This document shows, in pieces, positions 9,037 to 61,326 of a stretch of DNA of 64,000 bases. The notes below the pieces were generated by a model. It was not told the DNA's origin. It was given only the letters and a program-made list of their open reading frames with translations, and ran no database searches. A program made the translations under genes and the position numbers. The stretch is from Malacoraja senta (Eukaryota): contig CM075988.1 of the NCBI GenBank assembly GCA_038087875.1, positions 23,004,001 to 23,068,000 on the forward strand. The letters run 5' to 3'. Position 1 is the first letter of the stretch. Every line of letters starts with the position of its first letter.

Positions 9037-9929
9037 ATCTTATTGAAACATATACGATTATTAAGGGCTTGGACACGCTAGAGGCAGGAAACATGTTCCC
9101 GATGTTGGGGGAGTCCAGAACCAGGGGCCACAGTTTAAGAATAACGGGTAAGCCATTTAGAACGGAGACGAGGAAAAACATTTTCACCCAGAGAGTTGTG
9201 AATCTGTGGAATAGATTTTGTTGGTTAGGCTTCTGTAGTTTGCCCCTAGTGTGTACGATGCAAAAGTGGGATGACATAGAAGTGAGTGATCCATGATTGG
9301 TATGGACGTGGTGGGCTGAAGTAAGTTTATTGGCCAAGTATTCACATACAAGGAATTTGCCTTGGTGCTCCGCCCACAAGGGCCTGTTTCTACGCTGTGT
9401 CCCTAAATAAATTTAATTTATTTTTTAAAAAGCTACGTTTCAGGTCAGGACCTTTCAACAGAGAAGAGTCCCTACCCGAAATTATCCATGTTCTTCAGGG
9501 TTGCTGCCCGATCTGCTGAGTTACTCCAGCACTCTGTTCATTTCACTTGTAAACCAGCATCTGCAGTCCCTCGTGCCTAACCCATACTAATCCCATTTTC
9601 CAGCAGTTGGTCCATAGCCTTCTGCTCCTCGGTGATTCAAATGTTCTTGCAGATGCCTCTTAAACAATGTGATGTTCTCAAATGTTGAAACGTTTCGTAA
9701 TGCCACAGAGGGCTGTGGAGGCCGAGACGATGGATATTATGAAGGCAGAGAGATGGATTCTTGATTAGTACGGGTGTCAGGGGTTGCGGGGAGAAGGCAG
9801 GAGAATGGGGTTGAGAGGGAAAGAAAGATCAGCCATGATTGAATGGCGGAGTAGATGATGGGCCGAATGGCCTGATTCTGCTCCGATCACTTATGAACCT
9901 TATGAATGTACTCTTGATTTGTTCTACAG

Positions 9930-10367
9930 AGAGATTCGTGGGAAAGTGTGCAAGAAAACGGCAGCCAGAGTGAGACGATCTGTGATACCCTCCAGCAGAT
10001 GCAGACGTCACCGACTGATTGTCCATCGCAACACCACGGCAACCACACCCTGCCTGACACTGACTCTGCCTCTCCAGCCCAGTACAAGAGCACTGCCCGC
10101 AACAGCAACGGGCCCGGCCCCAGTTCCCAGCCCTACTCTCTGTACCCGCTGGACGAGATGCACTTCGGCCCTGGTTATCCATCCACCTCGGCTTACGGCT
10201 GCACCCCCTTCATGACTGTAGCCTCCGAGCTGGCGGCCAAGTCCCTCCATCTCACGTCCGAAGATTCGTCCGACACCCCCGCCCCGTCCATGCTTGACAT
10301 GTTGCCCTGGGCCAAAGAAGAAGCCGGCACCAGCTGGCCTTTGTATGAAGTCAGGCGGACCTACTGA
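9930..10367 (+). CDS. POU2AF2: POU2AF2/OCA-T1 last coding exon
   Basis: Acceptor gttctacag|AGA in phase 0. Reads RDSWESVQ...QPYSLYPLDEMH...TPFMTVASEL...PWAKEEAGTSWPLYEVRRTY*, versus recalled human RDSWEQTL...QSYSLHALEDLH...TPFMTVSNDL...PWVKEDGSIAWGSYECRRAY*. Confidence 0.93.
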   Translation, partial: RDSWESVQENGSQSETICDTLQQMQTSPTDCPSQHHGNHTLPDTDSASPAQYKSTARNSNGPGPSSQPYSLYPLDEMHFGPGYPSTSAYGCTPFMTVASELAAKSLHLTSEDSSDTPAPSMLDMLPWAKEEAGTSWPLYEVRRTY

Positions 10368-14009: not shown

Positions 14010-14475
14010 ACCTTTCTGTCCTGGGCCTCCACCACTGTCAGAGTGAGGCCCATCACAAATTGGAGGAACAGCACCTCATATTTCACTTGGGCAGCTTACA
14101 ACCCAGCAGTATGAATATTGACTTCTCAAACTTCAAGTAACTTTTGCTTCCCCTCTCCCTCCGTCCCTCCCCCATCCTAGTTCTCCGACCAGTCTGACTG
14201 TCCTCCTGGTTAAATTTTACATTGTATGCCTCGTGGACACCTTCCGCTAGCTAACAATGATCTATTCGCCATTGTCCCCTTTGATCTCTCGTTTTCACAC
14301 CTTACCCTTCCATATCTCTTGTTTCCCTCTCCCCCGACTCTCAGTCTGAAGAAGGGTCTCGACCTGAAACGTCACCCATTCCTTCCCTCCAGAGATGCTG
14401 CCTGTCCCGCTGAGGTGCTCCAGCATTTTGTCTCCATCTTCGGTGTAAAGCAGTATCTGCAGTTTGTTTCTACAC
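14010..14475 (+). mobile_element. Penelope-like element 3' end (GIY-YIG C-terminus plus pLTR with hammerhead motif)
   Basis: Reads LSVLGLHHCQSEAHHKLEEQHLIFHLGSLQPSSMNIDFSNFK*, typical of the PLE endonuclease C-terminus. Followed by CTGAAGA-AGGGTCTCGACCT-GAAACGTC at 14346-14373. Confidence 0.8.
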
Positions 14476-14516
14476 AAGACATATATAGCCTTAAAAATAA
14501 GATAGAATGTGTTTGT

Positions 14517-14699
14517 AGACAAAAATGCTGGAGAAACTCAGCGGGTGAGGCAGCATCTATGGAGCGAAGGAAATAGGCAACGTTTTGGGCCGAAACGTTG
14601 CCTATTTCCTTTGCTCCATAGATGCTGCTGCACCCGCTGAGATTCTCCAGCATTTTTGTGTACCTTCGATTTTCCAGCATCTGCAGTTCCTTCTTAAAC
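14517..14699. mobile_element. Palindromic Penelope-derived element
   Basis: Inverted arms around CCGAAACGTTGCC. 15-bp TSD ATAGAATRTGTTTGT (14502-16 and 14700-14). Confidence 0.72.
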
Positions 14700-15469
14700 A
14701 TAGAATATGTTTGTGCTATTTCCAATTGGTGCTGTTCCCATTCTCTATTTTGTAAGGTGCTCCATCTGGTGGCAAACTTCAGAACTGCTACAAATTGAAC
14801 TAATTAGGGGTAATCAATTGAGATTTGAACATATCTACTTGAATCTAATAAATCAGATTTGAAACCACTGGGTCAATCAATACATATTTGTCTCATTCAC
14901 CTTTAATTTGTTGGTATCGTTCTTTTACATTCAGACTTAAATGTGATTTAATGTTCCCAGAAATGTATTTCAATTCACTTATTACACATTTTCAATAACA
15001 TGACTGGCTTAGTTATAAGAAAGAAACTAACAATCGAAACAAATTATTTAATTGTCAAGAACATATTCTTTGGCCTTTCTTTCTCTCCAGATAGTTATAC
15101 ATTGACAAGTGAAATGAAATCCAGCAATGCTCTGCAATAAGATCTCGTCTACTGGTCAAGGTGCAGCAGATGATGCTAGCACAAGGGGGAGCATTTTACC
15201 TACTTGCTGTGAGAAACAAAATGCATTTCTTTGACTCACAAATTTAATTTTGATTAGACTTCATATAAAAGATACTTCCTCTCAAGAGCTGAAAATAAGG
15301 TGTGACTATTCCAATAACATTTAAAATATAGTTAGATTGGAAGCTCTGATTCCTCTCCTTTTTTCAACATAATTTACTCTTAATTAAGTTAACCATGCAG
15401 TTGAGATTAAATCCACAGATAGACTTAAAACCGTGTTCATTGGCAGATAGTAACGTGTTATTGGCTTTT

Positions 15470-16543: not shown

Positions 16544-19151
16544 TTACTTCCATGAGGGTGGATGTTGTAAGCTCAAGGAGCTTACTTCTACATCCTTGTA
16601 TGTAGAAGTGGTTTGTGTGGGGATTAAATAATAAAGGCTAGAGGATACTTGCGGAAGTGACTGATCCCTTAACAGTAGCTACACAGTAGGGCAACGTGTA
16701 CAATGGTTACAAAGAGAGGTAGAATGGTAATCATGGGGGAACTGAATTCACATATAACTTGTAAAATCAAATGGGCAAAAATCAGTTTAGTTTAGCTTAT
16801 TTTTAAGAAAGAACTGCAGATGCTGGAAAAATCGAAGGTAGACCAAAATGCTGGAGAAACTCAGCGGGTGAGGCAGCATCTGTGGAGAGAAAGAATAGGC
16901 GACGTTTCGGGTCGAGACCCTTCTTCAGACTGATGTCAGTGGGGGGGGCAGGGGGGGCGAGAAAAATAAAGGAAGAGGCGAAGACAGTAGGCTTGTGGGA
17001 GAGCTGGGAAGGGGAGGGGAAGAAGGGAGAAAGCAAGTTTAGTTTATGGTCACGTGTACCGAGGCACAGTGAAAAGCTTTTGTTGCATGCTATCTAGTCA
17101 GCGGAAAGACAATACAAGATTACCATCGAACCATTTACAGTGTATAGATGCATGATAAGGGAATAACAGTGTAGTGCAAGGTAAAGCCAGCAAAGGCCGA
17201 ACAAGGATAGTCCGAGAAAAATAGCTATGATGAGAAGTTCACAGATTGTTTGATTAGAAAAGCACATCTCAGAGGCACCCAAAGAGCAGACTACAGTAGA
17301 ATTAGTGTTCTCAAAAGAGCCAGCTTTGATTAATGACTTCATTGTGAAGGCACTCCTAAATTTACTTTTAGGGAGAGAAGAATGAGCAATATTTTAAACT
17401 TTATAAAGGGGAATTAGCAGGAATAATAGAAGTGAACAGACAAAGTAGATTAATGGATTATAGATGCAAAAAGCTGGAGTAACTCAGCGGGACAGGGAGC
17501 ATCTTTGAAGAGAAGGAATAGGTGACGTTTCGGGTTAAGACCCTTCTTCAGATTAATGGATTGGTCAATTAAGATGCAGTGACAGCTACTGAGCGGGATC
17601 CTCCACAATGTACAGAATGGATACATTCCCAATGATGAAGAAGTACTCCATGATCCATCGTCAATGCTTAACTAAAAAAGTTAACAGTAATATCAAAGTT
17701 AAAAAGAAAACATTCAATTGTACAGAGACTGGTGGTAGGTCAAAAGATGGGACAGAATATAAAACGGCAAAGAATGGCTCAAAAAATAATACGGTTAGTT
17801 TATTTTATTATCGCCAGGTACAGTGAAAAGCTTTTGTTTGCGTGCTATCCAGACAAAGAAAAGATTATATAGGAATATAATCAAGCCATCCACTGTGCAC
17901 AGATTAAGGATAAAGGGGACAACACGATATAACATTGAAGATACTTCAAAGATCTCCAATGAGGTAGATGGGAGGTCAGGACTGCACCATAGCTGGTGAC
18001 AAATTAGAGGATAAGAGGAAGTTAGCCAGAAATATGAAAACAGATAGTAAGGATTTCTGCAGACATTTAAAAATCAAATCAAATCAAAAAGGACAATTGA
18101 ACGTGTGGGGAGTTAATGATGAGAAAACAATGAGATGGCAAATGAATTAAGAGGTATTTTGTATCAGTCTTCAAAGCAAAATATACAAGCAGCATCCCAG
18201 AATTAGCTTCTGATCAGGAATTAGAAGGGGAGTAGGAACTAGTGACTATTGCAATCACCAGGGGAGCGTAATGTTGGGACTCGAGGGTGAGAAGCCTTTG
18301 GGTCCTGGTGGATGAACCTGAAAAGGTCTGGCCAGTGAGATAGTTAACTTACGAGCACAAAGTGCAGGAACAGCTCAGTGGGTAAGAGGGCATCTCTGGA
18401 GGAGGTAGAGGCTTCATTTCGTGACGAGACCCTTCTTCAGATTCGTACGCAAAACGGGGTGGGAGATTGCAACCTTCACGCGGTCCGCCCTGTTTCGACG
18501 AATGCAATCAACCCGGCGTGCACAATCAAATAAGATCAAATAGAACAAGTTGTCCTTCAACTTTAGGCTGTGGACGCCATACGCACGAAGGAGAAGAAGA
18601 AGTACACGAAACGTCTCTGAAATAGTTAACATGTTGTAGAACACGTTGCCTTTTGACCTACACTGTCTGCCAAACATAATGCCGACACCAAGTCTTATTT
18701 CCCTGCACATCCATCAGTCTATCTAAATGTCCCTGAAACACCACTATTGTACCTGCCTCAAACACCACCCCAAGGCACTCACCACGTTCTGTGGGGAAAA
18801 AACTTGCCCCACTAACTTTGTCCCTCTTACCTTAAAGCTAGTTCCTCTCGTATATGATTTTCCATCCTGGAAGAAAGGTTCTGAGTGTCTACCCTATTAG
18901 TGTCTGTAATAATTTTATATGCTACTATCAGGTCTCTCCGCAAGCTCTGGTAATCCAGGGAAAACTTTGTTCAACTTGTCCCTATAGGAAATAGCTCCTA
19001 ATCCAAGCATCACTTTGGTAAACCTCCTCCGCACCCTTTCCAAAGCCTCCACATCCTTCCTGTAATGGGGCGAGCAGAACTGCATACAGTACTCTGAATG
19101 CGGACATAACTAACTTCCTATAAAGCTGCCTCCTAACATCCTGACTCTTAT

Positions 19152-21205: not shown

Positions 21206-22076
21206 TGCCGTGTAACGTGCAAAATTCCTAGTGGGGAATCTAGAACAAATCTGGGGTCACACATTTTCGACAGACATGAGGAGGATTTCCTTCTCTCCAG
21301 GGTTGCAAATTTTCGGAATTCTCCAAAGCTGAGACATTGACTAAATTGTCGGCTGAGAGACACATTGTTAATCTTTGGGGAACAAGTTCAACAGTGGAGT
21401 TGAAGCCAAAATCAGATCAGCCATGAAACGGTGAAGCAAGCCTGAGAAGGTGTAAGGCTCCTATTTGCTCTATTTTTCGCTCGTATAAAATAACCAAACA
21501 CATTAAGGTCTGAACAAAGGCTCTTAACAGCGGAAGGGTAACTTAATCCCTTGTGTATTCCCCTTAATATAAAACTGATCGCCATTAACAATGTTTAAGA
21601 AAGAACTGCAGATGCTGGAAAAATCGAAGGTAGACAAAAATGCTGGAGAAACTCAGCGGGTGAGGCAGCATCTATGGAGCGAAGGAATAGGTGACGTTTC
21701 GGGTCGAGACCCTTCTTCAGACTGATCAATATTTTTGTCCAGCATTTTTGTCCACCTGCCATTAACAATGAATGTTTCTGTCACCTAGCTTTTATTGATT
21801 TGTTTTCTTCATCTTCAAATCTCTTTGCTCCACGACATTTGCCAAATTCTCACTATTTATTGCACATACCTGGCACACGGACGATTATTAGGGCATCGAT
21901 GTGACAATCTAATTTTTTACATCTTACTAACTAAAACCACAGGCTCGAAACTGCTCAGTTTGACTCATTCAGCAAGCTGTAATTGCAATACAATGCAGGC
22001 ACCATTCCCATTTCTAACTCAGTGAAACTAGTTCACTTTCACCCACATACCCATCCGTTGAATCGATGTTCAACAA

Positions 22077-29278: not shown

Positions 29279-32200
29279 TTTATGAATTTATGAACCATGG
29301 AAGTTCTCTAATATTGACCAATACAGAGAAAACTGGTTTCATAATCCTTATATTCCAATAGTTTTTAGTGTCAGACATGTGGGCAATTCAACAACAAACT
29401 AACTGCATGGTTATAAATCACAAAACGTTAGCAGGCAGGTTCTACAAAAGATTAGTTAGGCAAATGGCATTGGAAGAAGTTGATGTTTAGATAGAGGAAG
29501 TCTAGTTACAATTGCAGGTACAATTGCAGTTACCGGTGAGGCTACACATGATGAACTGTATACGATTTGCATCTATTAATTTGAGAAAAGACACACTGGC
29601 ATTGGGAGCAGTCCAAAAGAGACTGATAATGCTGCTTCCAGACTAGCCCAGTTCCTGAAGGATGATGACTTAGCATATGCCTGGATGAAAAAGTTCTATT
29701 ATAAGCAGCTCAAATCAGGACGTCATGATGCAGCTTTATAGGACTTTGGTTAGGCCGCATTTGGAGTATTCCACGCAGTTCCAGTCGCCCATTGCAGGGT
29801 GGATGTGGAGGCTTTGGAAAGAATGCAGAGGAGGTTTACCAGAAGCATGCCTGGATTGGCGTGTATTAGCTACAGAGAGAGAGATCGGGTAGACTGTTTT
29901 ATGTTCTATCTTCTACGTGCTATTAGAATGTCAGAGAGATTCAAGACTCTAGGAATAACAGGCAGTTTCTCATGGGTATGGTCTCAGCCCCCTGTAATGC
30001 TGAAGGAGCCGGTTGAATGATGGGTAGTGCAGCAGGTAGTGCTGCTGCCTTACAGTCCCAGGTAGCTGCGTTCATTTCTGGTCTCGGGTGTAGTCTGTGC
30101 GGAGTTGTACATTCTCCGACAGGGAACACCATATTAGGCTTACTCAGGCATGCTTCTTGTGTCATTTCTTCATTAACTCTTGGCAGACACAACGCGTTTA
30201 ACACCTTTGCTACATTTCAGACCCACTACTGCATGTACAAACGCGGGTCACACAGAAACAATGTCAGTGAAAGGAGGCAAAATGAGTAGGAAACCACAGA
30301 ACGGCTTAAAACACATTGAAACATATAAGATTGTTAAGGGTTTGGACACGCTAGAGGCAGGATACATGTTCCTGATGTTGAGGTAGTCCAGAACCAGGGG
30401 CCACAGTTTAAGAATAAGGGGTAAGCCATTTACAACAGAGACGAGAAAACACTTTTTCTCACAGAGAGTGGTGAGTCTGTGGAATTCTCTGCCTCAGAGG
30501 GCGGTGGAGGCTTGTTCTCTGGATGCTTTCAAGAGAGAGCTAGATAGGCCTCTTAAAGATAGCGGAGTCAGGAGATATGGGGAGAAGGCAGGAACGGGGT
30601 ACTGATTGGGGATGATCAGTCATGATCACAATGAATGGCGGTGCTGGCTCGAAGGGCCGAATGACCTACTCCTGCACCTATTGTCTATCGTCTATTGTCT
30701 AATACCAATGTCCACTGATATTTACAAACACGCAAAAAATATTAAGAATCAATTCAACATTCCTAGTGTCAAAAACCTGAAAACCTTTTAATACAGTTAC
30801 AAATATTAAAGCAACTCAATTTTTTTTTTTTTAATGCAAATTATTTTATACTCCCTCTCCATTCAAATGAAGGGACTCACATCTAGTCCCTCACCATCAA
30901 ATGTCCTGGGCCCAGCACACCAATGCAATTGCAAAGAATTGATTGCAACTAACACTGACATGATCACGCATTGTCCACAAAACAAGATGGAGCACTGTCA
31001 TTACACCCTGTTGCCAATAGAGGATGCCAAACAGCTTCAGTTTAGCACATCTTCCCCAGTCTGAAGAAGGGTTTCGGCCCGAAACGTTGCCTATTTCCTT
31101 CGCTCCATAGATGCTGCTGCACCCGCTGAGTTTCTCCAGCATTTTTGTGTACCTTCCCCAGCTAATAATGGGCCATTATGGACTCCACACTTCCGGAGGT
31201 CATCCGTTTCCAGCCCTGACTTGTTCTAGCCCTCTCCATCTTTCAGTCTGAAGAAGGGTTCCGACCCGAAAAGTCACCTATTCCTTTTCTCCAGAGATGC
31301 TGCCTGTCCCGCTGAGTTACTCCAGCATTTTTGTGCCTATCTTCAGTATAGGTTTAGTTTTGGTCAGAGATACAGCGTGGAATCATGCCCTTTGGCCCAC
31401 CCAGTCCGCATCTACAGCACTATCTTACACACTAGGAATGATTTATATAAGTCAATTATCCGACAAACCTGCACATTTTTGGATTGTGGGAGGGAACCGG
31501 AGTGCCCGGTGAAAACCCACTTGGTCACAGGGAGAAGGTACGAACTGGTCTCGGTGGGCCGAAGGGCCTGTTTCCGCGCTGTGTCTCTACACTAAACTAG
31601 ACTAGCTCCAGTCTTCAGACTCAACAGCAACTGGATAGCCTGGCCGTGGACAACACTTCTGCCGCAGAATATCTTTGTTGCACCCAACTCCAGCGGTTGT
31701 GGGTGCGGGCAGCGACACACTGAATGCCCCGTGTAACCTAGTCTCAGCTCACAACATACAGAAATCCAATCTTAGTTTGTTCAGGCAGAAGCTGACAAAA
31801 TGTACTTTCCCCTCCACAGAAATGGTCTCAAGGTACGAACAGAATCATATTAGCATTAGCAGGAGTTACAGCGGATGAGAATAAATTAGAATAAGTTTTT
31901 GCTAAACCACTATATAACTTCTTTAGCTGCAACTTTGGTTACCAAAAAAAAGCCCGACTCAAGGCACAACTCCGAGCAACTTGACACAAAATGCTTCCGA
32001 AGAAGGGTCTCGACCCGAAATGTTACCCATTCCTTCTCCCCAGAGATGCTGTCTGTCCCGCTGAGTTACACCAGCATTTTGTGCCTATCTTCGGTTTAAA
32101 CCAGCATCTGCAGTTCCTTCCTATACAACTCCGAGAAGGGTTTAATGTCGTTTCATCCGATTATTAGATTAATTTCATAATTTATTAGATTATTCCTGTC

Positions 32201-33497: not shown

Positions 33498-33653
33498 AAA
33501 CATACATACTCGACACGATGCATACACACATACACACATACATACACACATAACCTTCTCTCCAGAGATAGACAAAAATGCTGGAGAAACTCAGCGGGTG
33601 AGGCAGCATCTATGGAGACAAGGAATAGGCGACGTTTCGGGTCGAGACGTTTC

Positions 33654-33689
33654 GGGTCTGAAGAAGGGTCTCGACCCGAAACGTCGCCT
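33654..33689 (+). ncRNA. Minimal type I hammerhead ribozyme motif (Penelope-associated), representative copy
   Basis: gggt-CTGAAGA-a-gggt(ctcg)accc-GAAA-CGTC-gcct contains the CUGANGA and GAAA boxes, a stem II hairpin, palindromic ACGU stem III, a GUC cleavage triplet and a 4-bp stem I with wobble pairs. Confidence 0.6.
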
Positions 33690-35183
33690 ATTCCTTCTCT
33701 CCATAGATGTTGCTTCACCCGCTGAGTTACCCCAGCATTTTTGTGTCTATACGCGAGTATATGTCGAGTCTATGTCGAGTATATGTTGATGTCTATAGCG
33801 GGGTCAGGGGATACGGGGAGAAGGCAGGAACGTGGTACTGATTGGGGATGATCAGCCATGTTCACATTGAATGGCGGTGCTGGCTCGAAGGGCCGAATGG
33901 CCTACTCCTGCACCTATTGTCTATTGTTTATTGTCTATTGTCTGTACTCGAGTATATTTTGGTGGTACAAGGTGTTGCAATATATGCCGTTAGAAGGTGT
34001 TACAATAGGTGTGAACACCGAGAGCGAGATCATTACACTGTCCACCACCACCCAGCCAATTACACTAATTCTATCTTTATCCCATTATAATTCTCCCTGG
34101 TTCTTCCCGACTCTGCACATTCCACGCATTGCCTACACTCTGGGCGCGATTCCCAGCAAAGATCCTCTAGCGGCTATAGGATCTTTGATTCACGGCGGGT
34201 CATTCACCTACCACCCAGGCGTGCTTGGGAGATCAAGTGACCGCAGATGCAAATGGAAATGGGCAGACGACGTTTCGGGTCGACAACCCTTTAGTCTTTC
34301 ATTTTTAGTTCAGAGATGCAGCGCGGAAACAGGCCCTTCGGCCCACCGAGTCCGCGCCGACCAGCGATCCCCGTCACACTTAGCACACACTACTGCACCA
34401 GGGACAATTTACAATATTTACAGAAGCCAATTAATCTACAAACCTGTTTAAGAAGGAACTGCAGATGCTGGAAAATCGAAGATAGACACAAAGTGCTGGA
34501 GAAACTCAGCGGGGTGCAGCAGCATCTATGGAGCGAAGGAAATAGGCGTTGCCTATTTCCTTCGCTCCATAGATGCTGCTGCACCCCGCTGAGTTTCCTT
34601 CGCTCCATAGATGCTGCTGCACCCGCTGAGTTTCTCCAGCACTTTTGTCTACCTTTAACTTACAAACCTGTTCGTCTTTGGAGTGTGGGAGAAAACCGGA
34701 GCGCCCGGTGAAAACCCACGCGGTCACGGGAAGAACATGCAAACTCCACACACAAACAGACAACGCCCGAGATCAGGATTGAACACTGGTCTCTGGTGCT
34801 GTGAGGCAGCGGCCACTGACAGGACCTCTCCTCTTTGTGTTCGCAGTTTTAAAACAAAATCTTCATCGCATGTAGTGCGATTATTTATAACTACTGTGGG
34901 CAGATGTAAAAGTAAGAATTCGCGCTCGAATATGTTGGAAAAATACAAATAATAAGTGTGTATCTAGATGGGAACGTTTTAATTACACAGGCAAGTGGGG
35001 GCATTAAAAGTTCCCGTAGATTTGGGATAATTTATATTAGAATTCGCGAGGGTCCCAGACGCATAGAAAGTAAAGATATTGCACACAATGTTGGATTTGT
35101 TATAATGCGTCCGTTCGTTTGTGATTCGGATTCACGCTCTCGGGCTCAGAATAAAGCGCCGCTTTCGCTTCTTACACGATTTT

Positions 35184-45796: not shown

Positions 45797-46166
45797 TTGA
45801 GCAGTACAGGGCAGGAATGGCCCCATGATGTTTGTGCCGAACATGATGCCAAGTTAAACTGATCTCATCTGCCTGTACATTTCCAATATACCCACCATTC
45901 TCTGCACTTTCATGGGTCTATCTAAAAGCCTCTTAAACACCACTATCGTATCTGCCTCCACCACCACCCCTGGCAATGTGTTCCAGGCCCACACTGCTCA
46001 CTGTGTAAAACATTTGCCCCACACATCTCCATTAAACTTCCCCCCTCTAACGTTATAGCTCTAAAGTTGCACATTTCCACCTGGGAAAAAGGTTCTGACT
46101 TGTCTACCCTATCTACGCTTCTCATAATTTCATATACTTCTATCAAGTCTCCCCTCAACCTCCAAT

Positions 46167-46516
46167 TTAACCCCCTCCCATTCCCAATCGGACCTTTCTG
46201 TCCTGGGCCTCCTCCATTGTCAGAGTGAGGCCCAGCGCAAATTGGAGGAACAGCACCTCATATTTGGGTAGCTTACACCCCAGCGGTATGAACATTGACT
46301 TCTCGACCTTCAAATAGCACTTGTTTCCCCTCTCTCTCCATCCCCTCCCCCTTCCCATTTCCCCACCAGTCTTACTGTCTCCAACTACATTCGATCTTTG
46401 TCCCGACCACTCCCCTGATATCAGTCTGAAGAAGGGTCTCGACCCGAAACGTCACCCATTCCTTCTCTCCAGAGATGCTGCCTGTCCCACTGAGTTACTC
46501 CAGCATTTCGTGTCTG
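46167..46516 (+). mobile_element. Penelope-like element 3' fragment with hammerhead motif, inserted in CR1
   Basis: Same GIY-YIG C-terminal coding sequence as at 14010. Hammerhead core at 46426-46453. 15-bp TSD CCCTCAACCTCCAAT at 46152-66 and 46517-31. Confidence 0.82.
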
Positions 46517-47469
46517 CCCTCAACCTCCAATGTTCCAGAGAAAACAATCCAGGTCTATCCAACCTCTCCCTGTGGCTAAAACCCTCTAATCCAGGCACCA
46601 TTCTGGTAAACCTCCTCTGCACCCTCTCCAAAGCCTCCACATCTTTTCTGTAATGGGGCAACCAAAACTGCATGCAATACTCTATTTGCGCCTAACCAAA
46701 GTCCTACAGAGATGCATTTTTGTATGATTAATCACTGAAGCATAGCATATGATTATATATATTTTTTATTTTCTGAATTCATTAAAAATTTTATCTTTTC
46801 AAAACATAGGCTCAGTAGTACGTCAGTTCCGCGCAAGCGTAAGAATTTTATTCCTGTGAATAAAACTCATACAACATGAAGTAAAAAGGTTTAAAAAATA
46901 CATTTTATTCTGAAAAATATATTCTCTTGGCAATTAAAACAAATGACATATAGTTAAATGGAAAAATAAATTCAGAATAATTTGAATAAAAACTATTCCC
47001 ACATTATTTTGCCCTGTGAGATTAAACAATCTAATCACTGACCAGCACACGAGAAACAGCTGGAAAATATGGAAAGGTGCCATTTCTATTTTAATAAAGC
47101 TGAAATTTTAAACTGTGTAAAAGGGATTGGTTGCAAGAAAGCGATAGTTCCCCCTTCACCAATGGAAATTTGGTTAACCATTCAAGCATCAATAGGATTT
47201 ATTTTTTTCTTTCCTTCCGAAAGCAAAATGAACCTGGTGAGTTGTTTTTCCACGTGATGTGCGTGGTTTTACAATGTTCACTTGAATGATCCAAGAGTTT
47301 GAACATCTCATAGAAACGATCATTATAAAATCACCATCATCTCATGCTTCAATGGAAATTGAATGTCAAGCCTATTGACCTACAGGCAATAGAAATAACA
47401 TAAATAAAGCAATCTAGAGCTACACACTCAGGTAGTGTCAACTAATCCATTATCCATCATTCACATTAG

Positions 47470-47561
47470 TCTGAAGAAGGGTCTCGACCCGAAACGTCAC
47501 CCATTCCTTCTCTCCAGAGATGCTGCCTGTCCCGCTGAGTTACTCCACCATTTTGTGTCTA
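47470..47561 (+). mobile_element. 92-nt Penelope-derived hammerhead-bearing insertion
   Basis: Starts at tCTGAAGAAGGGTCTCGACCCGAAACGTC. Flanked by the 12-bp direct repeat CATTCACATTAG (47458-69 and 47562-73). Confidence 0.75.
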
Positions 47562-49873
47562 CATTCACATTAGGCCATTGGAAATCAATTTGGAGCTGGC
47601 TAATTGCAGTTTTAGTTCAGTGACCAATACATGAGCAGTGAACTCAATCACTGCGTATCAGCTTTGCATAATATGTACTTGGTATCGGCATGCAAACTTT
47701 ACATTTCATATGTAGTTGTCAGTCAAATGGAAACATAACAGCCAAAAAATGTCTTTGATCATCGAGTTGCTGTATTTCCGTAACTGATACAATGTTAAAA
47801 CGAGCATTCCAATGCCAATCTGGAACACCACGGAAACAGAAGCAACACTGGAAAGTAGCTCAAGCGATGAGAGTGGAGCAAGACGATGGAAGCAAGTCAG
47901 AACAATGATGTGCAGCTTCAGCAGGGCACTGCATTTCCAAGAGTAAGCTGAGCTGATTAAAGGCAGGTGAGGCCTGAGCTTGGTTTAGGTGGTGAGCAAG
48001 GGGGTAGACCTCACTGCACACGTCAATATTTGTGGTAGTCCTTCTGACCAAACCAATCTGCAATCACATTTGTAACAATCCTTCTCTATCCTGTATCCTG
48101 TATCTGTGCACTGTGGATGGCTGGATTGTAATCATGTATGGTTCACTCGCTGACTAGATAACACACTACAAAATGCTTTTCATCGTACCTTGGTGCACGT
48201 GACAATAGTAAGCTGAAATAAAATATCTAAATCTTCTCTCAGATACAAAATGATGAAAATGTTTTGTAATAAATGGTCGTTCAATTTTTTAAAGGTATAA
48301 AAAACATAAATTACATTTAAGTAGCTTGCATTAAAATTATAATCTTAAAATTGGTTGGTGTGGCTTCAGAAGTGTGTGCATTAAATGATTAGTCGCCGAT
48401 TGCTTTAGGGTAACATACAGTAATGGGTGAACTTTGGCAAAGCGATAAAAATCATGGCAAACAGCAGTCAACGTTCGAGATAAAAAATGTCACACACCTG
48501 ATCATAAGAATACATTTCTATGAAAAGAAAAGGTATTGGAATCAAGTAACTGTTGAATGAATTCTGAAATAAGGAAAGAGTAGTTCTTTCAAGTGAATGA
48601 ACTGTGGTGATTCAAATCACTTCTCCATCCACATTTATCACGTGAAATCGGGAATGGGATTATTAGTGCATCGATTGGATGGATTTTCAGATCACTGGTT
48701 GCATTCATTGTTAGGATGGTGGAATTTGCTGACTGCTGCATATTTAACATGTAAATGCTCTTCACTAACAATAAAAGCAGAAAGCATCCCAAATGTTAGC
48801 ATGTTCCCGCAAAAGCAAAACTAAAATATCCCGAAGCTCACAGTAAATGGCAAGCTGACTTAGCAAGGATCCTCCTTATCTGTGTGGCTCAATAGGTTTA
48901 TCCAGTGGTTAGTAAAAACATACAGGCTAGGAAGACCTGTATATTAGCAGAGTAGCTATTATTCTTCATCTCAGTGCCCTGTTTTACAGATCAGTTACTG
49001 CTGAAAAGTATTTAACTAATGTTTCCAGAATCCAACGTGTTGATATTTCCGTGACCACAGACAGATGTGCCGTGGAAAGCATTTTATCACTGCATGGTTT
49101 GGCTACAGCTCCATCCAAGACCGCAAGAAATGACAAAGAATTGTGGACGCAGCCCGGACCATCACACCGCCCGGACAACCTCCTTTCTATTAATTCCATC
49201 TACACTTCACACAAGACCACCGGCAAAATCAAGGATGAGTCTAACCTAGTCATCTTCTCCCCTCTCCCATCAGGCAAGAGGCACTGAAGTTTGAAAACGC
49301 ATACCTCCAGATTCAGGGACAGTTTCTTTCCAGTTAACATCAGACAATTGATCCATCCTATCACCAACTAGGTCAGACTCCCGAGCTATCATCTACCTCT
49401 TTGGAAACACTGGGACTATCTTTAATCAGACTTTACTGGGTTTTATCTTGCATTAAACGTTATTCCCATTATCATGTATCTGTGCATTGTGGACGGCTCG
49501 ATTATAATCATGCTGGCAGGTTAGCATGCAACATAAAAACTTTTCACTGTAGCTGTGTACCGTGACAATAAACTAAACAAACGAATTAACTACCTAAGGT
49601 AGAATATGCGACCAGGAGACATAGGGAGCAGCAGCACATGGTACTAACCCCCTTGCAAAAATACATTATAATTGGATGGAGCGTGAAAAAAAGTTACAGA
49701 GAAAATGAATGAAGAAAAGTTAAGGCAGCAGTAATTCTACTACTCTGGGTCTGGATGGCTTGGCCACACTGGTTTTACATTCTTGTTCAGAGGAATTACT
49801 CACATTTAAACACAACTAAAATTATTTACAGGCGCATAAGAAAGAAGATTGCAAAACATTCCTGATAATTTTT

Positions 49874-50194
49874 TCAATAGTCCAAACATTCACTTAGGGT
49901 TCCCCTCCAGAGATCCTCTGTGAGAAATCCCGATGAATAGTCCCTGTAGTCTGGGATTGTGAAGGACCCGTTTTCAGACACCGAGCCCATCTCCATGTTG
50001 TCTGGCATGCAGGAAAAGATGGAGCAGATAGCTGACGTGCAGCTGTAGTGTTGGTGGGCGAAGTACTCTTCCGAAGTCGGGTAAAAGGACTTAGGTTCCA
50101 AGTGCGAAGGTGGACAGAAGTCTTGCGGCGACAATGCAACACGCTGGGTGGAATATTCGTAATCCATTGAAGCGTAGGCAGGAGATCCTGCAAT
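49874..50194 (-). CDS. POU2AF3: POU2AF3/OCA-T2-like last coding exon
   Basis: Acceptor ttcctattag|ATT in phase 0. Reads IAGSPAYASMDYEYSTQRVALSPQDFCPPSHLE...EEYFAHQHYSC..AICSIFSC...ECLDY*, versus recalled human IPGSPS...LDYSYSP...APENYNSPASLD...EDHSYQH...SICYCASC. Proximity to POU2AF2 matches known synteny. Confidence 0.8.
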   Translation of the reverse strand: MAGSPAYASMDYEYSTQRVALSPQDFCPPSHLEPKSFYPTSEEYFAHQHYSCTSAICSIFSCMPDNMEMGSVSENGSFTIPDYRDYSSGFLTEDLWRGTLSECLDY

Positions 50195-52785
50195 CTAATA
50201 GGAACGGTACAATTATAAATGTGTACATTCGAAGAGATTTATGTCGCCAAATGTAATGAGCTCTCATATCTGTACACGGGAGACAGAAGGAACTGCAGAT
50301 GCTGAAATCTTGAGCAAAAACGACACAATGTTTAGTTTAGTTTAGAGATACAGTGCTGAAACAGGCCCACCGAGTCCGCACCGACAAGCGATCCCCACAC
50401 ACTAACACTATCCTACACACACTAGGGACAATTTACAATTTTACCAAGCCAATTAACCTACAAACCTGCGCGTCTTTGGAGTGTGGGAGGAAACCGGAGC
50501 ACCCGGGGGAAACCCTCGTGGTCACGGGGAGAACATGCAAACTCCAGCACTTTGTGTTTGTTTCTCTGTACAGTTGGTTCAAAGCCCGTTCTATGATATA
50601 AGCTAGGCTGGTAGTTTAGTGCCATAACTAGTGCAATAGGTTCTTCTGAACATGAACTCCGTACTTAATTACTCAAGTGAGAATTAAAAATCCAGTGCCA
50701 CATTTTAGAGGAAACATTATGAGTCTACTGAAGTATGAGTACTGAAACAATAGATATGAGTGTGTCTAAAGTATCTCTAAAGTTTAAAGTCCAAAGAGTG
50801 GATGGAGCCTTGAGTATTGCGAAGAGCTGGAGGGGAATAGAACTTGTGTGAATGGGTGATCGATGGTTGGCGTGGACTTGTCAACTAATCAACCAATCAA
50901 TCAATCAACCAACTAATCAATCAATCAATTCAAGTATCCAGTTTAATATTTATCACTTAGCCCCTGACCTCAAAAGAAATGAACAAGTCAAGCATCCAAA
51001 GGTTCTTTCACAGCTTTGAAAGTTTACTGTCATGTTTCTCGCTAAAGAAAACCCACTGAGGGAACTGTTCCAGAGCCTCTTGACCCAACGCGCTGTCGGA
51101 CCATTTCTCTCCACAGATGCTGCCTGGCCCATAGAGTTCCTCTAGCAGATAGTTACAAAGTGCTTGAGTAACTCAGTGGATCAGGCGGCGTCTCTGGAGA
51201 AAGAGGACGTTTCAGGTCGGAATCCTTCTTCCACCTCTTCCTCCGGCAGTTTGTTTTTTTGTTCCATATTTCGGCATCTGCCATCTCTTGTGTCTCTATT
51301 TCACAGCCATATTTATCTATATTTCAAAAACTAAACATTAATCTGCAAAGCTCTTGCGGATATGTAGAGAAGTAGGAAGTTAACTAACTGTGAGGTATTG
51401 TTTCATATCTGCAACAATTTCTCCCAGTGTGTGCTGGGCTCATACTGTTAAGAACGTTGTAGATTTCAGATCAAGTTCCTAATAACTGCTATACTACAAG
51501 ATGATTGAATTCTTCAAATGAAGATATCACAATAACTGCTTTACTACAAGATAAAGATGATTGAATTCTTCAAATGAAGATATCACAACAACTTGCGTCA
51601 AGAGCAGCAAAGTTCTAATCCTCAGGGTTGACCAATATTAGGAGTGTAATTGGTAGTCTACATTATCCCGTGGGAAGGAAGGCTTGTATGTGCAACTTTA
51701 TATAATCTCAAAGTATTTTGCAGCTAATGAAAGATGTTTGGAGTTATATTGCTCTTAGGCAGGCAGCATCTCTGGAGAGGAAATCGGGAGATATGAAAAT
51801 GTACATAGAACAAATTAATGAAAGATAATTTGTGGAGCCCACAATGGTCCATTGTTGGTGATAACTAGTAATACAAACAGTGAAACTCAGCAGGATGACA
51901 GTGAAACTAATACGATGACTAGGGTGGGTCATATTTCCTCCAACTTCTAAGGAATTAGATATAATGGGAATGAAAGATTACAGAAAGGCTTCCAAGATTA
52001 GCCATTGACCATCAAGGTTAGGCAGAAGAAATGTGTAGGAAGGAACTACAGATGCAAGTTTACACAGAAGATAGACATAAAATGCTGGAGTTAATAGCGG
52101 GACAGACAGCATCTCTGGATAGAAGGAATTGGTGATGTTTCTGGTCAAAACCCTTCTTCAGACTGAGATTCAGGGGAGTGGGAGACACAGAGATAAGGAA
52201 TGGTAAAGTGTGTGAAAACGAGATAAAAAAAGATGAAGTTTTAGGGGTCTATGTATGGTTGGGCAGCATGAGAGAGAGCAAATTTAATCTAGGACAAAAA
52301 ATAAGCAGTGATCATAATGTCCTGACTAATTAAAAAGGCGACGGACAATTCAATGCAAAGTTATTCCAGCACTTTGTGCCTATCCCTGGAAATAAACCAG
52401 ACATGGTACATGTGCAGGAAGGAACTGCAGATGCTGGTTTACACCGACAGAGACACAAAAAGCTGGAGTAACTCAGCGGGCCAGGCAGCATCTCTGGAGA
52501 GAAGGAATGGGTGACGTATCGGGTCGAGACCCTTCCTCTGACTTTTTTTTGTGTGTGTCTATCTTCGGTTTAAATCAGCATCTGCAGTTCCTTCCTACAA
52601 ATTCAATTCAAAGAACGACCTGAAGTAGAGAAAATTGAAAATTATTTGTTGCTACATTTTGAACATTGCTTTATTTTGGTGAAGTGAGATGTCACAGAGA
52701 AACGCCGTTGAAGGTGAATACTTAATAACTGTGTCAAGGGGGTCGTATAGCAGTGGGCTGGGAGTGTAGAGAGGTGTTTACTTAC

Positions 52786-55132: not shown

Positions 55133-58100
55133 CTGAAAGATATTAAAAAAAAACAATCCCAAGTAAACGGGGTGGGCTTTAGGCAAACGTGTGGGAGCAT
55201 TAAAAAAACCCAGCCTCAACCCGAGTAGCCAGGGATGAACTCGGATTTCTTACACTGATATCAACCAAATGCATTGCAAGTTAAGACACAGAGTGCTGGA
55301 GTAACTCAGCGGGTCAGGCAGCATCTCTATGGACAGGTCCCGAGCCGAAATGTCACCTCTCCATGTTCCCCAGAGATGCTGCCTGATGACCCGCTGAGTT
55401 CCTCCAACACTTTGCGACTTTATTTTTCCACCAGCATCTGCAGTTCCTTGTGTCTCCACTGTGAGTTATTTGCGTGTCATTTCTGTGCATGGCAGGCGGG
55501 TATTTGCGTGCAGATTTTTTGTTGGGACGATTTTTTTTACCCATTGTCGACCCTGGCTATTTATTTGCAGACCGGTAACCAAAGAACTTGCAAGCGATGA
55601 GTTATGGTGAAGATAAGACACAAAGAGCTGGAGTAACTCTGCGGGCCAGGTTAGCGTCTCTGGAGAGAAGGAATAGGTGGCGTTTCGGGTCGTTATAGCG
55701 CAGTTGGGGATTGGGTGGGAGTTTGTAATGAGGTTGATGTGTGGACCCGAGCGTGATAGATAGTACAGTCAAGTTGGTCAAAATCACACTTGTCTGGGTT
55801 TCTTCCCACTCACGTGACTTAAACTCAAGCCTGCCTGGATCGGATTTCAATTACATCACCCGGGACAGTCCCAGTACCAGATAGCTCTGGACTTTCTAAT
55901 CATTTTAACCCTGGAAATATTCTAGCAGTTTAACCGCGCTATCAGTTTAAACAGTGTATCTGTGTGCTTCGAATCTTATCATTGCCTGGACTTTCAGATG
56001 CGTTTCACTCCATGGCTAGACGCCAGGATCCTGGTGCTGTGGGCAGGGGGTTGGGATAATGTGTAGGTAGACTGTATGCCTCTATCCCGGGTGTGGTCCG
56101 GCCGGGATTTTCACAAACTGACGCTGTTGAGATTCGGAGTGAACTCGCGCCCGCAATGCACTTGATTGAATAGATAGATGCCTCTCAAACATGACAGACG
56201 GGGGGGGGGGGGGGTGTCGGTGGTGAGACGGTCCGGGTCTGAAGAAGGGTCTCGACCCGAAAGGTCACCCAATCCTTCGCTCCGGAGATGCTGCCCGTGT
56301 CCCCCCGCCGAGTTACTCCAGCATTTTGTGTCTATCTTCAGACTTGCTCAAAAAGTCAAATGTTGAATGTGGCAGAGATTCCTTCAGCCGTTTCCACGAG
56401 TGTTCTCTTCTCTTGGCGACATAGGTCGCGGCGAGTAGACCCGGCAATGTCACAGGGTCCAGCGGCCCTCTACCCCCCCCCCCCCCCCTGCTTCACTTCA
56501 TTTCGCTCGGGGCATCTCACTCCCTCTCTCTGCTGCAGTTTCAAAACTCTGCGTGGGCTGTTAACCATTTTGAGGGGGAGAAACCGGCTCATGTTTAGAC
56601 CAAGACCCCTCTTCAGTGAAGCATTAACTCTGAAGAGAGAGACACAAAATGCTGGAGTAACTCAGCGGGACAGGCAGCATCTCTGGAGAGAAGGAATAGG
56701 TGACGTTTCGGGTCGAGACCCTTCTTCAGACCCGAAACGTCACCTATCCAATTTCTCTAGCGATGCCGCCTGACCCGCTGAGTTACTCCAGCATTTCGTT
56801 TTTATCTTCGGTGTAAACCAACATCTGCAGTTCCTTCTTAAACATTAACCATGTTTCGCTGTCCACAGATGCTGCCTGTGTTCCCTGCGTTTTCTAATTT
56901 ATTTCAAATTCCCAATGTGTGAGGCGTTCTGCTTTTGCACTCTCGCTTTTGTCTAGATATATACAATGGCAATATCCATCCCTGCTCGAGCAATCCCCTT
57001 GATAATTGGAAATTAACTAACACGTCCCAACTCAAGCATGTGTACATAAATGGCCCTTGCGTGTCCGATATACTAAAAAGAGCGACGTGTATTGATACAG
57101 CGGAATTGAAACACATTGAGTCTACATCCAAAAAAACTCACAAGGACTCGGCTCTGTGACGCTTCTGATTTCAGATCCGCTTCATAACAAGAGTTTTTCC
57201 TAGCCGGAGAATGAATAGCGGTTTCCATAAGAGTATGGAGATGTATTTTTTATAGAAAAGGGTCAGTTTTTTGCACTGGTACTGTTATTGGAACATCTCA
57301 TTGACAGATGTTAAGTGTGCAACAATTTTGAGACCGTGTACTTTAACCTGCCATTATCACACCGATAGTGTTCAGCTGGTGCTGAATACATACAACGTTT
57401 ACCGTTGAAAGTGTAGTATATACCTTCCCCTAGCTAACAATAATCTATTCTACATTTTCCTTGATCCTCGTGCCATTTGATCTCTCATTTTCACACCTTA
57501 CCCTTCCATATCTCTGTGTCTCCCTTTCCCTCTCCCTCCCCCGAGTTCGATTTAGCTCTGATGGCTAAGGGAATCAAGGGATATGGGGAAAAAGCAGGAA
57601 CGGGGTACCGATTTTGGATGATCAGCCATGATCACATTGAATGGCGGTGCTGGTTCGAAGGGCCGAATGGCCTACTCCTGCACCTATTGTCTACGTGTCT
57701 ATGTTTCCCTTGAATCTCAGTCTAAAGAAGGGTCTCGACCCGAAACGTCACCCATTCCTTCTCCCCAGAGATGCTGCCCGTCCCGCCGAGTTTACTGCAG
57801 CATTTTGTGTCTATCTTCGATGTAAACCAGCATCTGCAGTTCCTTTCTACACGTGTAGTAGATGGAGGCTGGCGACAAGGGATCTGGGAGCATGCAAGTT
57901 GGGCTCTTTGAGGACAATTTCACTCCCAACACTTTATTAGGCCGGGGTATTAATCATCTGTGTTTAAATCTGTCACTATTTAAATCGCAAGGTCATCGGA
58001 TTACATGCACACTTAGAATCATAGAGTGATACAGCACTGATACAGGCCCTTCGGCCCAACTCGTCCATGGTGACCAAGATGCCCCATCTAAAATAGTCAA

Positions 58101-61126: not shown

Positions 61127-61326
61127 NNNNNNNNNNNNNNNNNNNNNNNNNNNNNNNNNNNNNNNNNNNNNNNNNNNNNNNNNNNNNNNNNNNNNNNNNN
61201 NNNNNNNNNNNNNNNNNNNNNNNNNNNNNNNNNNNNNNNNNNNNNNNNNNNNNNNNNNNNNNNNNNNNNNNNNNNNNNNNNNNNNNNNNNNNNNNNNNNN
61301 NNNNNNNNNNNNNNNNNNNNNNNNNN
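61127..61326. other. Assembly gap (200 N)
   Basis: Run of exactly 200 N. Confidence 0.99.

What the first reader, a model, noticed from the sequence alone, without database searches (positions are those of the whole stretch)
33654..33689. Abundant minimal hammerhead-ribozyme motif in a Penelope-derived element family
Seen: a very frequent short repeat in the window carries CTGAAGA-a-GGGT(CTCG)ACCC-GAAA-CGTC, e.g. at 14346, 33658, 46426 and 47471 on +, and near 2430, 16905, 21700 and 56705 on -. Stem II variants keep their pairing: GGGT-TTCG-GCCC with a GUU triplet at 31061-31088, and GGGT-CCCG-GCCC at about 39092. Established: CUGANGA/GAAA/NUH is the hammerhead core, and Penelope-like element pLTRs encode minimal type I hammerheads with a palindromic stem III (here ACGU) thought to act as dimers. 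Two copies sit directly behind GIY-YIG C-terminal coding sequence. Inference: this genome may carry a very large number of potentially self-cleaving RNA motifs, some inside POU2AF2/POU2AF3 introns. Caveat: stem I is only 2-4 bp in these copies, so many may be inactive.
Basis: partly seen in the sequence, partly recalled or inferred. Interest (0 to 1): 0.75.

Follow-up and report, generated by a model that had tools for sequence, protein, structure and literature searches.

The report
Abundant Penelope hammerhead remnants in skate
The motif is a real minimal hammerhead ribozyme sequence carried by the end piece of a Penelope-like jumping gene, scattered about once per kilobase in this probably skate DNA; the kind is known and most copies are likely inert, but the copies mostly begin at the ribozyme's front edge rather than at its cut site, so they were likely copied from uncut RNA.

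Summary
Confirmed, and a known kind. The window holds 59 pieces (46 loci) of a 95/135-nt repeat: the 3' pseudo-LTR of a Neptune-type Penelope-like element (PLE). It has GIY-YIG remnants upstream of two copies, an optional ~40-nt tail, target duplications and 13 head-to-head pairs. Eight copies have an intact minimal hammerhead. A model built only from related non-skate PLEs, whose stems covary strongly, finds the flagged copy at E about 1e-8. Minimal hammerheads in PLEs were described in 2014, and this scan noted them earlier in three shark windows.

Corrections: skate copies show no stem covariation; true stem I is 2 bp (the flagged copy's 4 bp come from an inversion junction); the flagged copy is predicted to be buried in a long hairpin; no intact sense copy lies in the delimited POU2AF2/3 introns; a relative's RNA shows no cut ends or strand bias.

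Extra observation: 26 of 34 long-enough copies end at the ribozyme's 5' edge, not at the cut, and reads and contigs from related genomes agree. This fits reverse transcriptase running off an uncleaved RNA that starts at an initiator-like TCAGTC (inferred).

The parts
33658..33685 (+). Flagged minimal hammerhead: CUGAAGA, bulged A, 4-bp stem II with CUCG loop, GAAA, CG, UC; predicted cut after 33685
   Evidence: covariance model from non-skate PLEs, 40.6 bits, E about 1e-8
33656..33750 (+). Sense arm of the flagged insertion: pLTR fragment from -29 to about +62 relative to the cut, short form without tail
33566..33655 (-). Inverted arm of the same insertion (from -17, plus a 7-nt duplicated junction). 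It supplies the GG of the apparent 4-bp stem I and is predicted to pair with the sense arm in a ~90-bp hairpin
14012..14477 (+). Longest PLE 3' end: GIY-YIG C-terminal codons 14012-14137, stop 14138-14140, ~200-nt UTR, hammerhead 14346-14373, tail to 14477
   Evidence: reference
46161..46521 (+). Second PLE 3' end with frameshifted GIY-YIG remnant, a different UTR and an intact hammerhead 46426-46453; inserted in another repeat with a 10-15 nt target duplication
47465..47567 (+). Typical solo copy: 12-nt target duplication, 5' end at -30 to -28, intact hammerhead 47471-47498
31057..31156 (+). Solo copy of another subfamily (TTCG loop, U-G closing pair, GUU triplet); 9-nt target duplication; 5' end at -31 to -28
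21590..21763 (-). Copy with tail and intact hammerhead (21693-21720), short inverted partner, 13-nt target duplication
16799..17035 (-). Copy with tail, intact hammerhead (16901-16928) and about 100 nt of UTR
56624..56846 (-). Head-to-head pair with intact hammerhead on the minus arm (56702-56729); same GGGT junction as the flagged copy
14341..14347 (+). TCAGTCT at the 5' edge of the ribozyme: initiator-like (consensus recalled), its A at 14343 is position -30, where copy 5' ends pile up
   Evidence: sequence; loose ends and joints at 14341-14345

Best explanation
This is the minimal hammerhead in the pseudo-LTR of a Neptune-type Penelope-like retrotransposon, present here as dozens of 5'-truncated insertions that are likely inert relics; in the parent element it would cleave only as a dimer paired through ACGU and probably only with protein help. 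Shown here: PLE origin, the two 3' ends about 40 nt apart, target duplications, head-to-head pairs, and a sharp 5' boundary about 30 nt before the cut. Inferred: the element's protein nicks the target, starts reverse transcription at one of two sites about 62 or 103 nt after the cut site, and copies straight through an uncleaved ribozyme. It then most likely runs off the RNA's 5' end at the initiator-like TCAGTC, giving the 95- and 135-nt solo copies. Head-to-head pairs would come from two such cDNAs, one primed on each nicked strand, joined by short microhomology. A predicted alternative hairpin (GAAGAAGGGU with ACCCAUUCCUUC) would keep free RNA in an off state.
For: PLE origin: the 42-aa remnant is 83% identical to a skate gene model and 50-67% to shark and ray proteins carrying YIDD RT, a CX2-5CXXC linker and GIY-YIG. 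3' ends: 27 of 59 at +61 to +76 and 26 of 59 at +90 or beyond. Direct repeats of 8 nt or more at 13 of 46 loci against 1.9 in permuted pairs; 13 of 46 loci are head-to-head. Motif selected in the clade: 24 motifs in 20 of 80 related loci with no stem required, stem II >=4 bp in 23 of 24 and stem I >=3 bp in 21 of 24; 7 of 8 pairs have double changes in 16 aligned motifs, 0 of 500 shuffles reach the score; that model finds 26 window hits at E<=1. 5' ends: 26 of 34 copies that reach -21 stop between -40 and -21, 7.1 expected, P 6e-12 (hand-curated); no excess at +1 to +7 (6 of 22, P 0.16). In one search the best-supported 5' loose ends are at -32, -30 and -29 in raw RNA (1293, 1034, 842 reads) and at -32 to -29 in two DNA contig sets; the letters before -30 and -29 agree only 0.31-0.34, as unrelated flanks would. 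Frangieh 2024 (PMC11167929) reports two internal RT start sites, nicking and extension of both strands, a protein-assisted ribozyme and use of unprocessed RNA for an anole PLE.
Against: No cleavage, transcription start or protein binding was measured. No RT-coding part of this family is in the window, and no genome was held. The initiator match is weak evidence: two of its seven letters are fixed by the ribozyme core, and the motif is not shared by the non-skate relatives. In ORF-bearing relatives the second pLTR begins 46 to 300 or more nt upstream of C3 in all 5 loci with an interpretable second copy, not at the ribozyme edge. The -32 loose ends are partly other subfamilies' UTRs. One search lists only the best-supported rows (2330 loose-end and 699 joint rows hidden), and its begin/end table needs a fifth of the depth, so minor cleavage would be missed. 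Core A positions are slightly better kept than flank A positions (1 of 102 against 14 of 202, P 0.024), which may be selection on source elements but does not exclude some on copies. The off hairpin shows no covariation.
Confidence: 0.72

Rival explanations
1. Same element, but the 5' boundary marks where reverse transcriptase stalls on the 3' pLTR of a long transcript (bound protein, a ribozyme dimer, or the small CTGA..TCAG hairpin just upstream), not the RNA's start.
For: Fits the same end distribution. A 3-4 bp hairpin whose 3' edge is at -29 appears in the predicted fold with UTR. Eight of 34 copies do continue into the UTR.
Against: The main predicted hairpin spans -25 to +12, so a stall should fall on its 3' side, where no pile-up is seen. 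The upstream hairpin is very weak. UTRs differ between subfamilies while the boundary is shared.
Confidence: 0.25
2. One reading: many dispersed copies are working ribozymes that cut host transcripts, including POU2AF2/POU2AF3 pre-mRNA.
For: Eight intact motifs in 63.6 kb; 17,519 of 7.3 million polyA reads of a related species carry the family; tandem joints exist that could allow dimers (table 5).
Against: 2-bp stem I; predicted stem II probability about 0.03; modelled active half-dimer about -9 to -10 kcal/mol against -21 to -29 for the best dimer fold in the shortest context (7 of 8 copies). CpG positions in the core decay like neutral DNA (G12 5 of 34, C15.2 10 of 34). Sense and antisense depth are equal over the ribozyme (5313 and 5299). 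Published metazoan min-HHRs were inactive as monomers and weak as dimers (PMC4209133).
Confidence: 0.08
3. CAG|TCTGAAG is a splice acceptor, as at the Drosophila virilis Penelope ribozyme, and splicing brings in an exon end that lengthens stem I and switches the ribozyme on.
For: Pyrimidine-rich UTR followed by CAG at -31 to -29; precedent in PMC4209133; it would explain the unusually short stem I.
Against: No GT..AG joint ending at 14345 among the 15 joints shown, and 14345 is not among the six best loose ends of the raw RNA run. No shared upstream exon among window copies. It does not explain truncation at this point.
Confidence: 0.1
4. Chance resemblance: an abundant repeat that happens to contain the core boxes.
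For: No Rfam hammerhead hit; no covariation among skate copies; folding z-scores near zero for solo copies.
Against: The same architecture with covarying stems lies in 20 of 80 related PLE loci, with 0 hits in shuffled loci, at the pLTR position where the literature places it.
Confidence: 0.02

Closest known systems
Minimal hammerheads (min-HHR) in pLTRs of metazoan Penelope-like elements (Cervera and De la Pena 2014, PMC4209133)
   Same: Type I layout, extra base after A9, G10.1-C11.1 pair, palindromic 15.2-16.2, no stem III loop, pLTR position, mostly solo copies from truncated PLEs; reported in fish Xena, Poseidon and Neptune elements.
   Different: Stem I is 2 bp and stem II 4 bp (4-5 and 7-8 bp in their Schistosoma families; 2-bp stem I in D. 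virilis). Eight intact motifs in 63.6 kb would extrapolate far above their about 4,000 (coelacanth) and 9,000 (Xenopus) per genome. The text I read names no cartilaginous fish and does not map 5' ends.
Neptune clade of EN+ PLEs (Craig et al. 2021, PMC8557442)
   Same: C-terminal GIY-YIG; CX2-5CXXC linker in the nearest relatives; 5' truncation, inverted partners, optional 30-40 nt tail.
   Different: No full-length copy in the window; the clade is assigned through relatives, not by a tree, and Nematis shares the linker.
PAc, Poseidon PLE of Anolis carolinensis (Frangieh et al. 2024, PMC11167929)
   Same: Two RT start sites bounding the tail; no RNA-seq ends at the cut; ribozyme not needed for insertion. 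Several target duplications here begin with CAT or AT(T), similar to its ATT preference (by eye, not tested).
   Different: Other clade. There the ORF starts inside stem II; here no ORF start was located. Their activities were measured, these were not.
Non-LTR retrozymes (Li, Clavereau, Pollet 2026, 10.64898/2026.07.22.740005; Cervera and De la Pena 2020, listing only)
   Same: Non-coding, pLTR-derived, carry a type I hammerhead, many monomers.
   Different: Retrozymes are defined as tandem arrays with a complete ribozyme in at least two consecutive units; these copies are solo or head-to-head.

Membership tests
PLE min-HHR | CUGANGA, GAAA and UH core in type I order | tested here: met
PLE min-HHR | Extra nucleotide between A9 and 10.1; G10.1-C11.1 pair | tested here: met
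   A in 33 of 34 copies; G-C in 26 of 32
PLE min-HHR | Palindromic 15.1-16.1 for dimer pairing | tested here: met
   ACGU is the majority sequence; it decays at the CpG
PLE min-HHR | Stem covariation across families | tested here: inconclusive
   Strong among related non-skate PLEs; none among the window's copies
PLE min-HHR | Stem I closing the motif | tested here: inconclusive
   Only 2 bp in the family; 21 of 24 relatives have 3 bp or more; 2 bp has a precedent in D. virilis (PMC4209133)
PLE min-HHR | Located in the pLTR downstream of the ORF | tested here: met
   205 and 109 nt after the GIY-YIG stop
PLE min-HHR | Self-cleavage as dimer or with protein | not testable with these tools
   Needs an assay; no dominant ends in RNA reads
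EN+ Penelope-like element | GIY-YIG endonuclease at the ORF C-terminus | tested here: met
   Remnants match the C-termini of RT+GIY-YIG proteins; the remnants alone have no Pfam hit and the short relatives hit PF01541 below its cut-off
EN+ Penelope-like element | Penelope-type RT in the same ORF | tested here: inconclusive
   Absent from the window; present in relatives
EN+ Penelope-like element | 5' truncation, inverted partners, optional 30-40 nt tail, target duplication | tested here: met
Neptune clade | CX2-5CXXC linker between RT and EN; RT phylogeny | tested here: inconclusive
   Linker seen in shark and ray relatives only; no tree built
Non-LTR retrozyme | Tandem array with a complete ribozyme in two or more consecutive units | tested here: not met
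   No such array of identical units among the 46 loci; some tandem joints exist in related genomes
Rfam hammerhead families | Match to a curated model | tested here: not met
   None among 27 matches at E<=5

The most novel reading that the evidence does not exclude
The Penelope transcript starts at an initiator on the ribozyme's own 5' edge, so the 95/135-nt copies are strong-stop-like run-off products. Each carries start site, ribozyme and RT priming site, and so forms a self-propagating, SINE-like ribozyme mini-element of perhaps 10^5 to 10^6 copies in skates, locked off by a built-in hairpin until the element's protein binds. The shared ribozyme-plus-tail segment would also be the terminal redundancy through which a template jump rebuilds the pseudo-LTR.
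Probability: 0.25. Interest if true: 0.6.

Novelty: new member of a known kind. Interest (0 to 1): 0.33.

Why it matters
As a ribozyme find it adds a lineage and a very high density to a described class. The more useful point is mechanistic. How pseudo-LTRs form and what the PLE ribozyme does are open questions, and a genome with about one insertion per kilobase gives a large natural record of where reverse transcription started and stopped. The record here says the templates were mostly uncleaved and ended at the ribozyme's front edge, which one genome-wide junction count and one capped-end library could confirm or dismiss.

Tried and rejected
Whole genome: none held, so no genome-wide count. 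Rfam: no hammerhead hit. DNA pattern scan of metagenome contigs for more copies: 0 matches. Covariation among 32 skate copies: none for the hammerhead stems or for the off hairpin. Raw core-versus-flank conservation (4.9% against 10.4%, P 0.002) was set aside as biased by alignment ends, A-richness and subfamily-diagnostic flank sites; the A-only comparison is P 0.024. A pile-up of 5' ends at the cut site was tested and not found. A splice joint at -28 was not among the joints shown. The initiator-like context is not conserved in non-skate relatives. Untemplated G at the 5' junction: G is the last loose letter in 5 of 7 consensus rows at -30 and -29, but the inversion junction also gives G, so I do not count it. 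Automatic 5'-end mapping with many UTR references over-extends by chance, so the count of 26 is hand-curated. Lunse et al. 2017 is not held. Frangieh's supplementary figure 2 gave no text. Earlier-findings searches by sequence, by genome and for the truncation idea returned nothing. Runs with small word shares were not used, except X15, which was laid.

Full report
Observation. Positions below are given relative to the predicted cut (C17 = 0, C3 = -27). Self-BLAST with eight window slices found 60 pieces covering 8.7% of the called bases; I dropped one (61938) because it lies in a 2674-nt near-identical duplication, leaving 59 pieces in 46 loci.

What it is. The 42 codons at 14012-14137 are 83% identical to the C-terminus of a gene model of the skate Rhinoraja longicauda, apparently an exonised copy, and 50-67% identical to shark and ray proteins with YIDD RT, a CX2-5CXXC linker and GIY-YIG. 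I therefore read the window as skate DNA and the element as a Neptune-type PLE; both are inferences from relatives. The copies have the PLE hallmarks listed in PMC8557442: 3' ends in two groups (27 of 59 at +61 to +76, 26 of 59 at +90 or beyond, 6 shorter), 13 of 46 loci head-to-head, and boundary direct repeats of 8 nt or more at 13 of 46 loci against 1.9 by permutation. No RT sequence of this family is in the window.

Is it a hammerhead? Rfam finds none, and the 32 skate copies aligned (those reaching the core, picked by hand) show no covariation. The clade does. Of 80 related PLE loci from metagenome contigs (the best 80 of 521), 20 carry 24 motifs of the form CTGANGA..GAAACGTH found with no stem required; 23 of 24 have stem II of 4 bp or more and 21 of 24 stem I of 3 bp or more, and re-pairing stem I strands between families drops the mean from 3.1 to 0.9 bp. 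A stricter scan gave 23 hits in the loci and 0 in shuffled loci. In 16 of the 24 motifs, chosen as mostly non-redundant plus-strand examples, 7 of 8 pairs show double changes and 0 of 500 shuffles reach the score (related sequences inflate this). A model built from those 16 alone gives 26 window hits at E<=1, the flagged copy second at 40.6 bits. This is the min-HHR of Cervera and De la Pena 2014 (PMC4209133).

Is it active here? Probably not in most copies. Stem I is 2 bp in the family. The 4-bp version at 33654 exists because the inverted arm ends in the complement of stem II and joins through a shared GTC; the same junction recurs at 56237 and 56731. The whole flagged insertion is predicted to fold as a -150 kcal/mol hairpin that buries the core. 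Solo copies are predicted to pair G5 to U10.4 with +1 to +12; mean stem II probability is 0.03 in 9 window motifs against 0.87 in 20 relatives. That hairpin has no covariation support, and folding programs do not score hammerhead cores, so this is a hint only. Core CpG sites decay freely. In 7.3 million polyA reads of a related organism (run X21, about 6% read), 17,519 were laid; depth over the ribozyme is equal on both strands while the ORF end is 1.8 to 1, and no place has many molecules beginning or ending, at a threshold of a fifth of the depth. POU2AF2 exons are at about 1935-2312 and 9918-10364 (Pfam) and POU2AF3 exons at about 53016-52780 and 50194-49877 on the minus strand. The 8 and 7 family pieces between these exon pairs include no intact sense-strand motif. 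The flagged copy lies outside both mapped intervals.

The boundary. Of 59 pieces, 34 reach -21 or carry UTR. Eight carry UTR (one with the ribozyme deleted) and 26 stop between -40 and -21, against 7.1 expected from the loss rate just downstream (P 6e-12; hand-curated). By inspection most of the 26 abut a target duplication or an inversion junction; an unrecognised UTR subfamily could account for a few. There is no excess at +1 to +7 (6 of 22, P 0.16). One search gives independent support. In the raw RNA run, depth falls from about 9,000 at 14350-14367 to about 700 at 14314-14331. The best-supported 5' loose ends are 14341, 14343 and 14344 (-32, -30, -29) in X21, and 14341-14344 in contig sets X1 and X8; the cut site 14374 is not among the rows shown. 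Eight of the 10 inverted joints and 3 of the 4 tandem joints shown use 14341-14345. The -32 class is partly other UTRs; the -30 and -29 classes have unrelated flanks. Most rows of these tables were hidden.

Mechanism. Frangieh et al. [quoted passage not shown] The skate copies fit this: they keep the whole ribozyme, so their templates were uncleaved (this follows from the sequence, given retrotransposition). Why they stop at -30 is inferred. TCAGTCT matches the initiator consensus (YYANWYY and TCAKTY, recalled) with its A at -30, and D. virilis Penelope has an internal promoter in the pLTR (PMC2377424). I put run-off at the RNA start at about 0.5, a stall at 0.25, and other causes below that. 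Against it: the match is modest evidence, relatives lack it, and their second pLTRs start further upstream. Arkhipova 2013 (PMC3846280) explains head-to-head pairs by self-priming on an antisense template instead, which I cannot exclude.

Abundance. Eight intact motifs per 63.6 kb would be a few hundred thousand per genome if the window is typical and the genome 2-3 Gb (size recalled), against about 4,000 and 9,000 reported for coelacanth and Xenopus. One window cannot carry this; 109,180 and 173,832 contigs laid in X1 and X8 point the same way but are not copy numbers.

Literature seen. PMC4209133: parts 1-2 of 4, no supplements. PMC11167929: parts 1-2 of 4, supplement list, one figure file without text. 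PMC8557442, PMC2377424, PMC6765202, PMC3846280: passages. Lunse et al.: title and a review's summary only. Searches showed no paper on this skate family or on 5' ends at the ribozyme edge; the library lacks subscription journals and Repbase, and unseen supplements (alignments in the 2014 paper, junction plots in the 2024 paper) may already show either. Three earlier scan notes report the same kind in sharks.

Verdict. A new member of a known kind, mostly inert, interest 0.33. The end mapping is the part worth following up.

Noticed in passing
window 48245-50918 and 61327-64000: A 2674-nt inverted duplicate at 99.96% identity that starts right after the N gap at 61127-61326 and holds the last POU2AF3 exon twice. 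The piece between the two gaps has POU2AF3 on the minus strand; likely a haplotig overlap or a flipped contig.
   Followed up: partly
window 34269-34294 (-): Ribozyme remnant (GGGTTGTCGACCC GAAACGTC) followed by a different downstream sequence: probably a second PLE family.
   Followed up: no
window 51760-51860 (-): UTR joined directly to +10: the ribozyme is deleted, apparently through a CTCTCC microhomology.
   Followed up: partly
window 57415-57852 (+): PLE end interrupted 12-13 nt before the core by about 170 nt of another abundant repeat, with an 8-nt target duplication around the whole.
   Followed up: no
window 14514-14701, 34445-34655: Near-perfect palindromic pairs of one subfamily; they produce the sub-threshold Rfam miRNA hits. 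Many such pairs would give double-stranded RNA when transcribed.
   Followed up: no
P0001: A skate neuromedin-U receptor 1 gene model ends in about 50 residues of this PLE's GIY-YIG C-terminus: exonisation or an annotation error.
   Followed up: no
reference 14062-14097: The ORF end shows a 1.8 to 1 strand bias in polyA RNA, antisense if the library is of the usual stranded type, while the ribozyme region shows none.
   Followed up: no
window 7850-8839 (-): 329-aa open frame with an RVT_1 match, a non-LTR retrotransposon fragment in the POU2AF2 intron, unrelated to the PLE.
   Followed up: no
target duplications: Many begin with CAT or AT(T) in element orientation and overlap the element's 3' end, suggesting a target preference and priming microhomology; judged by eye.
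   Followed up: partly
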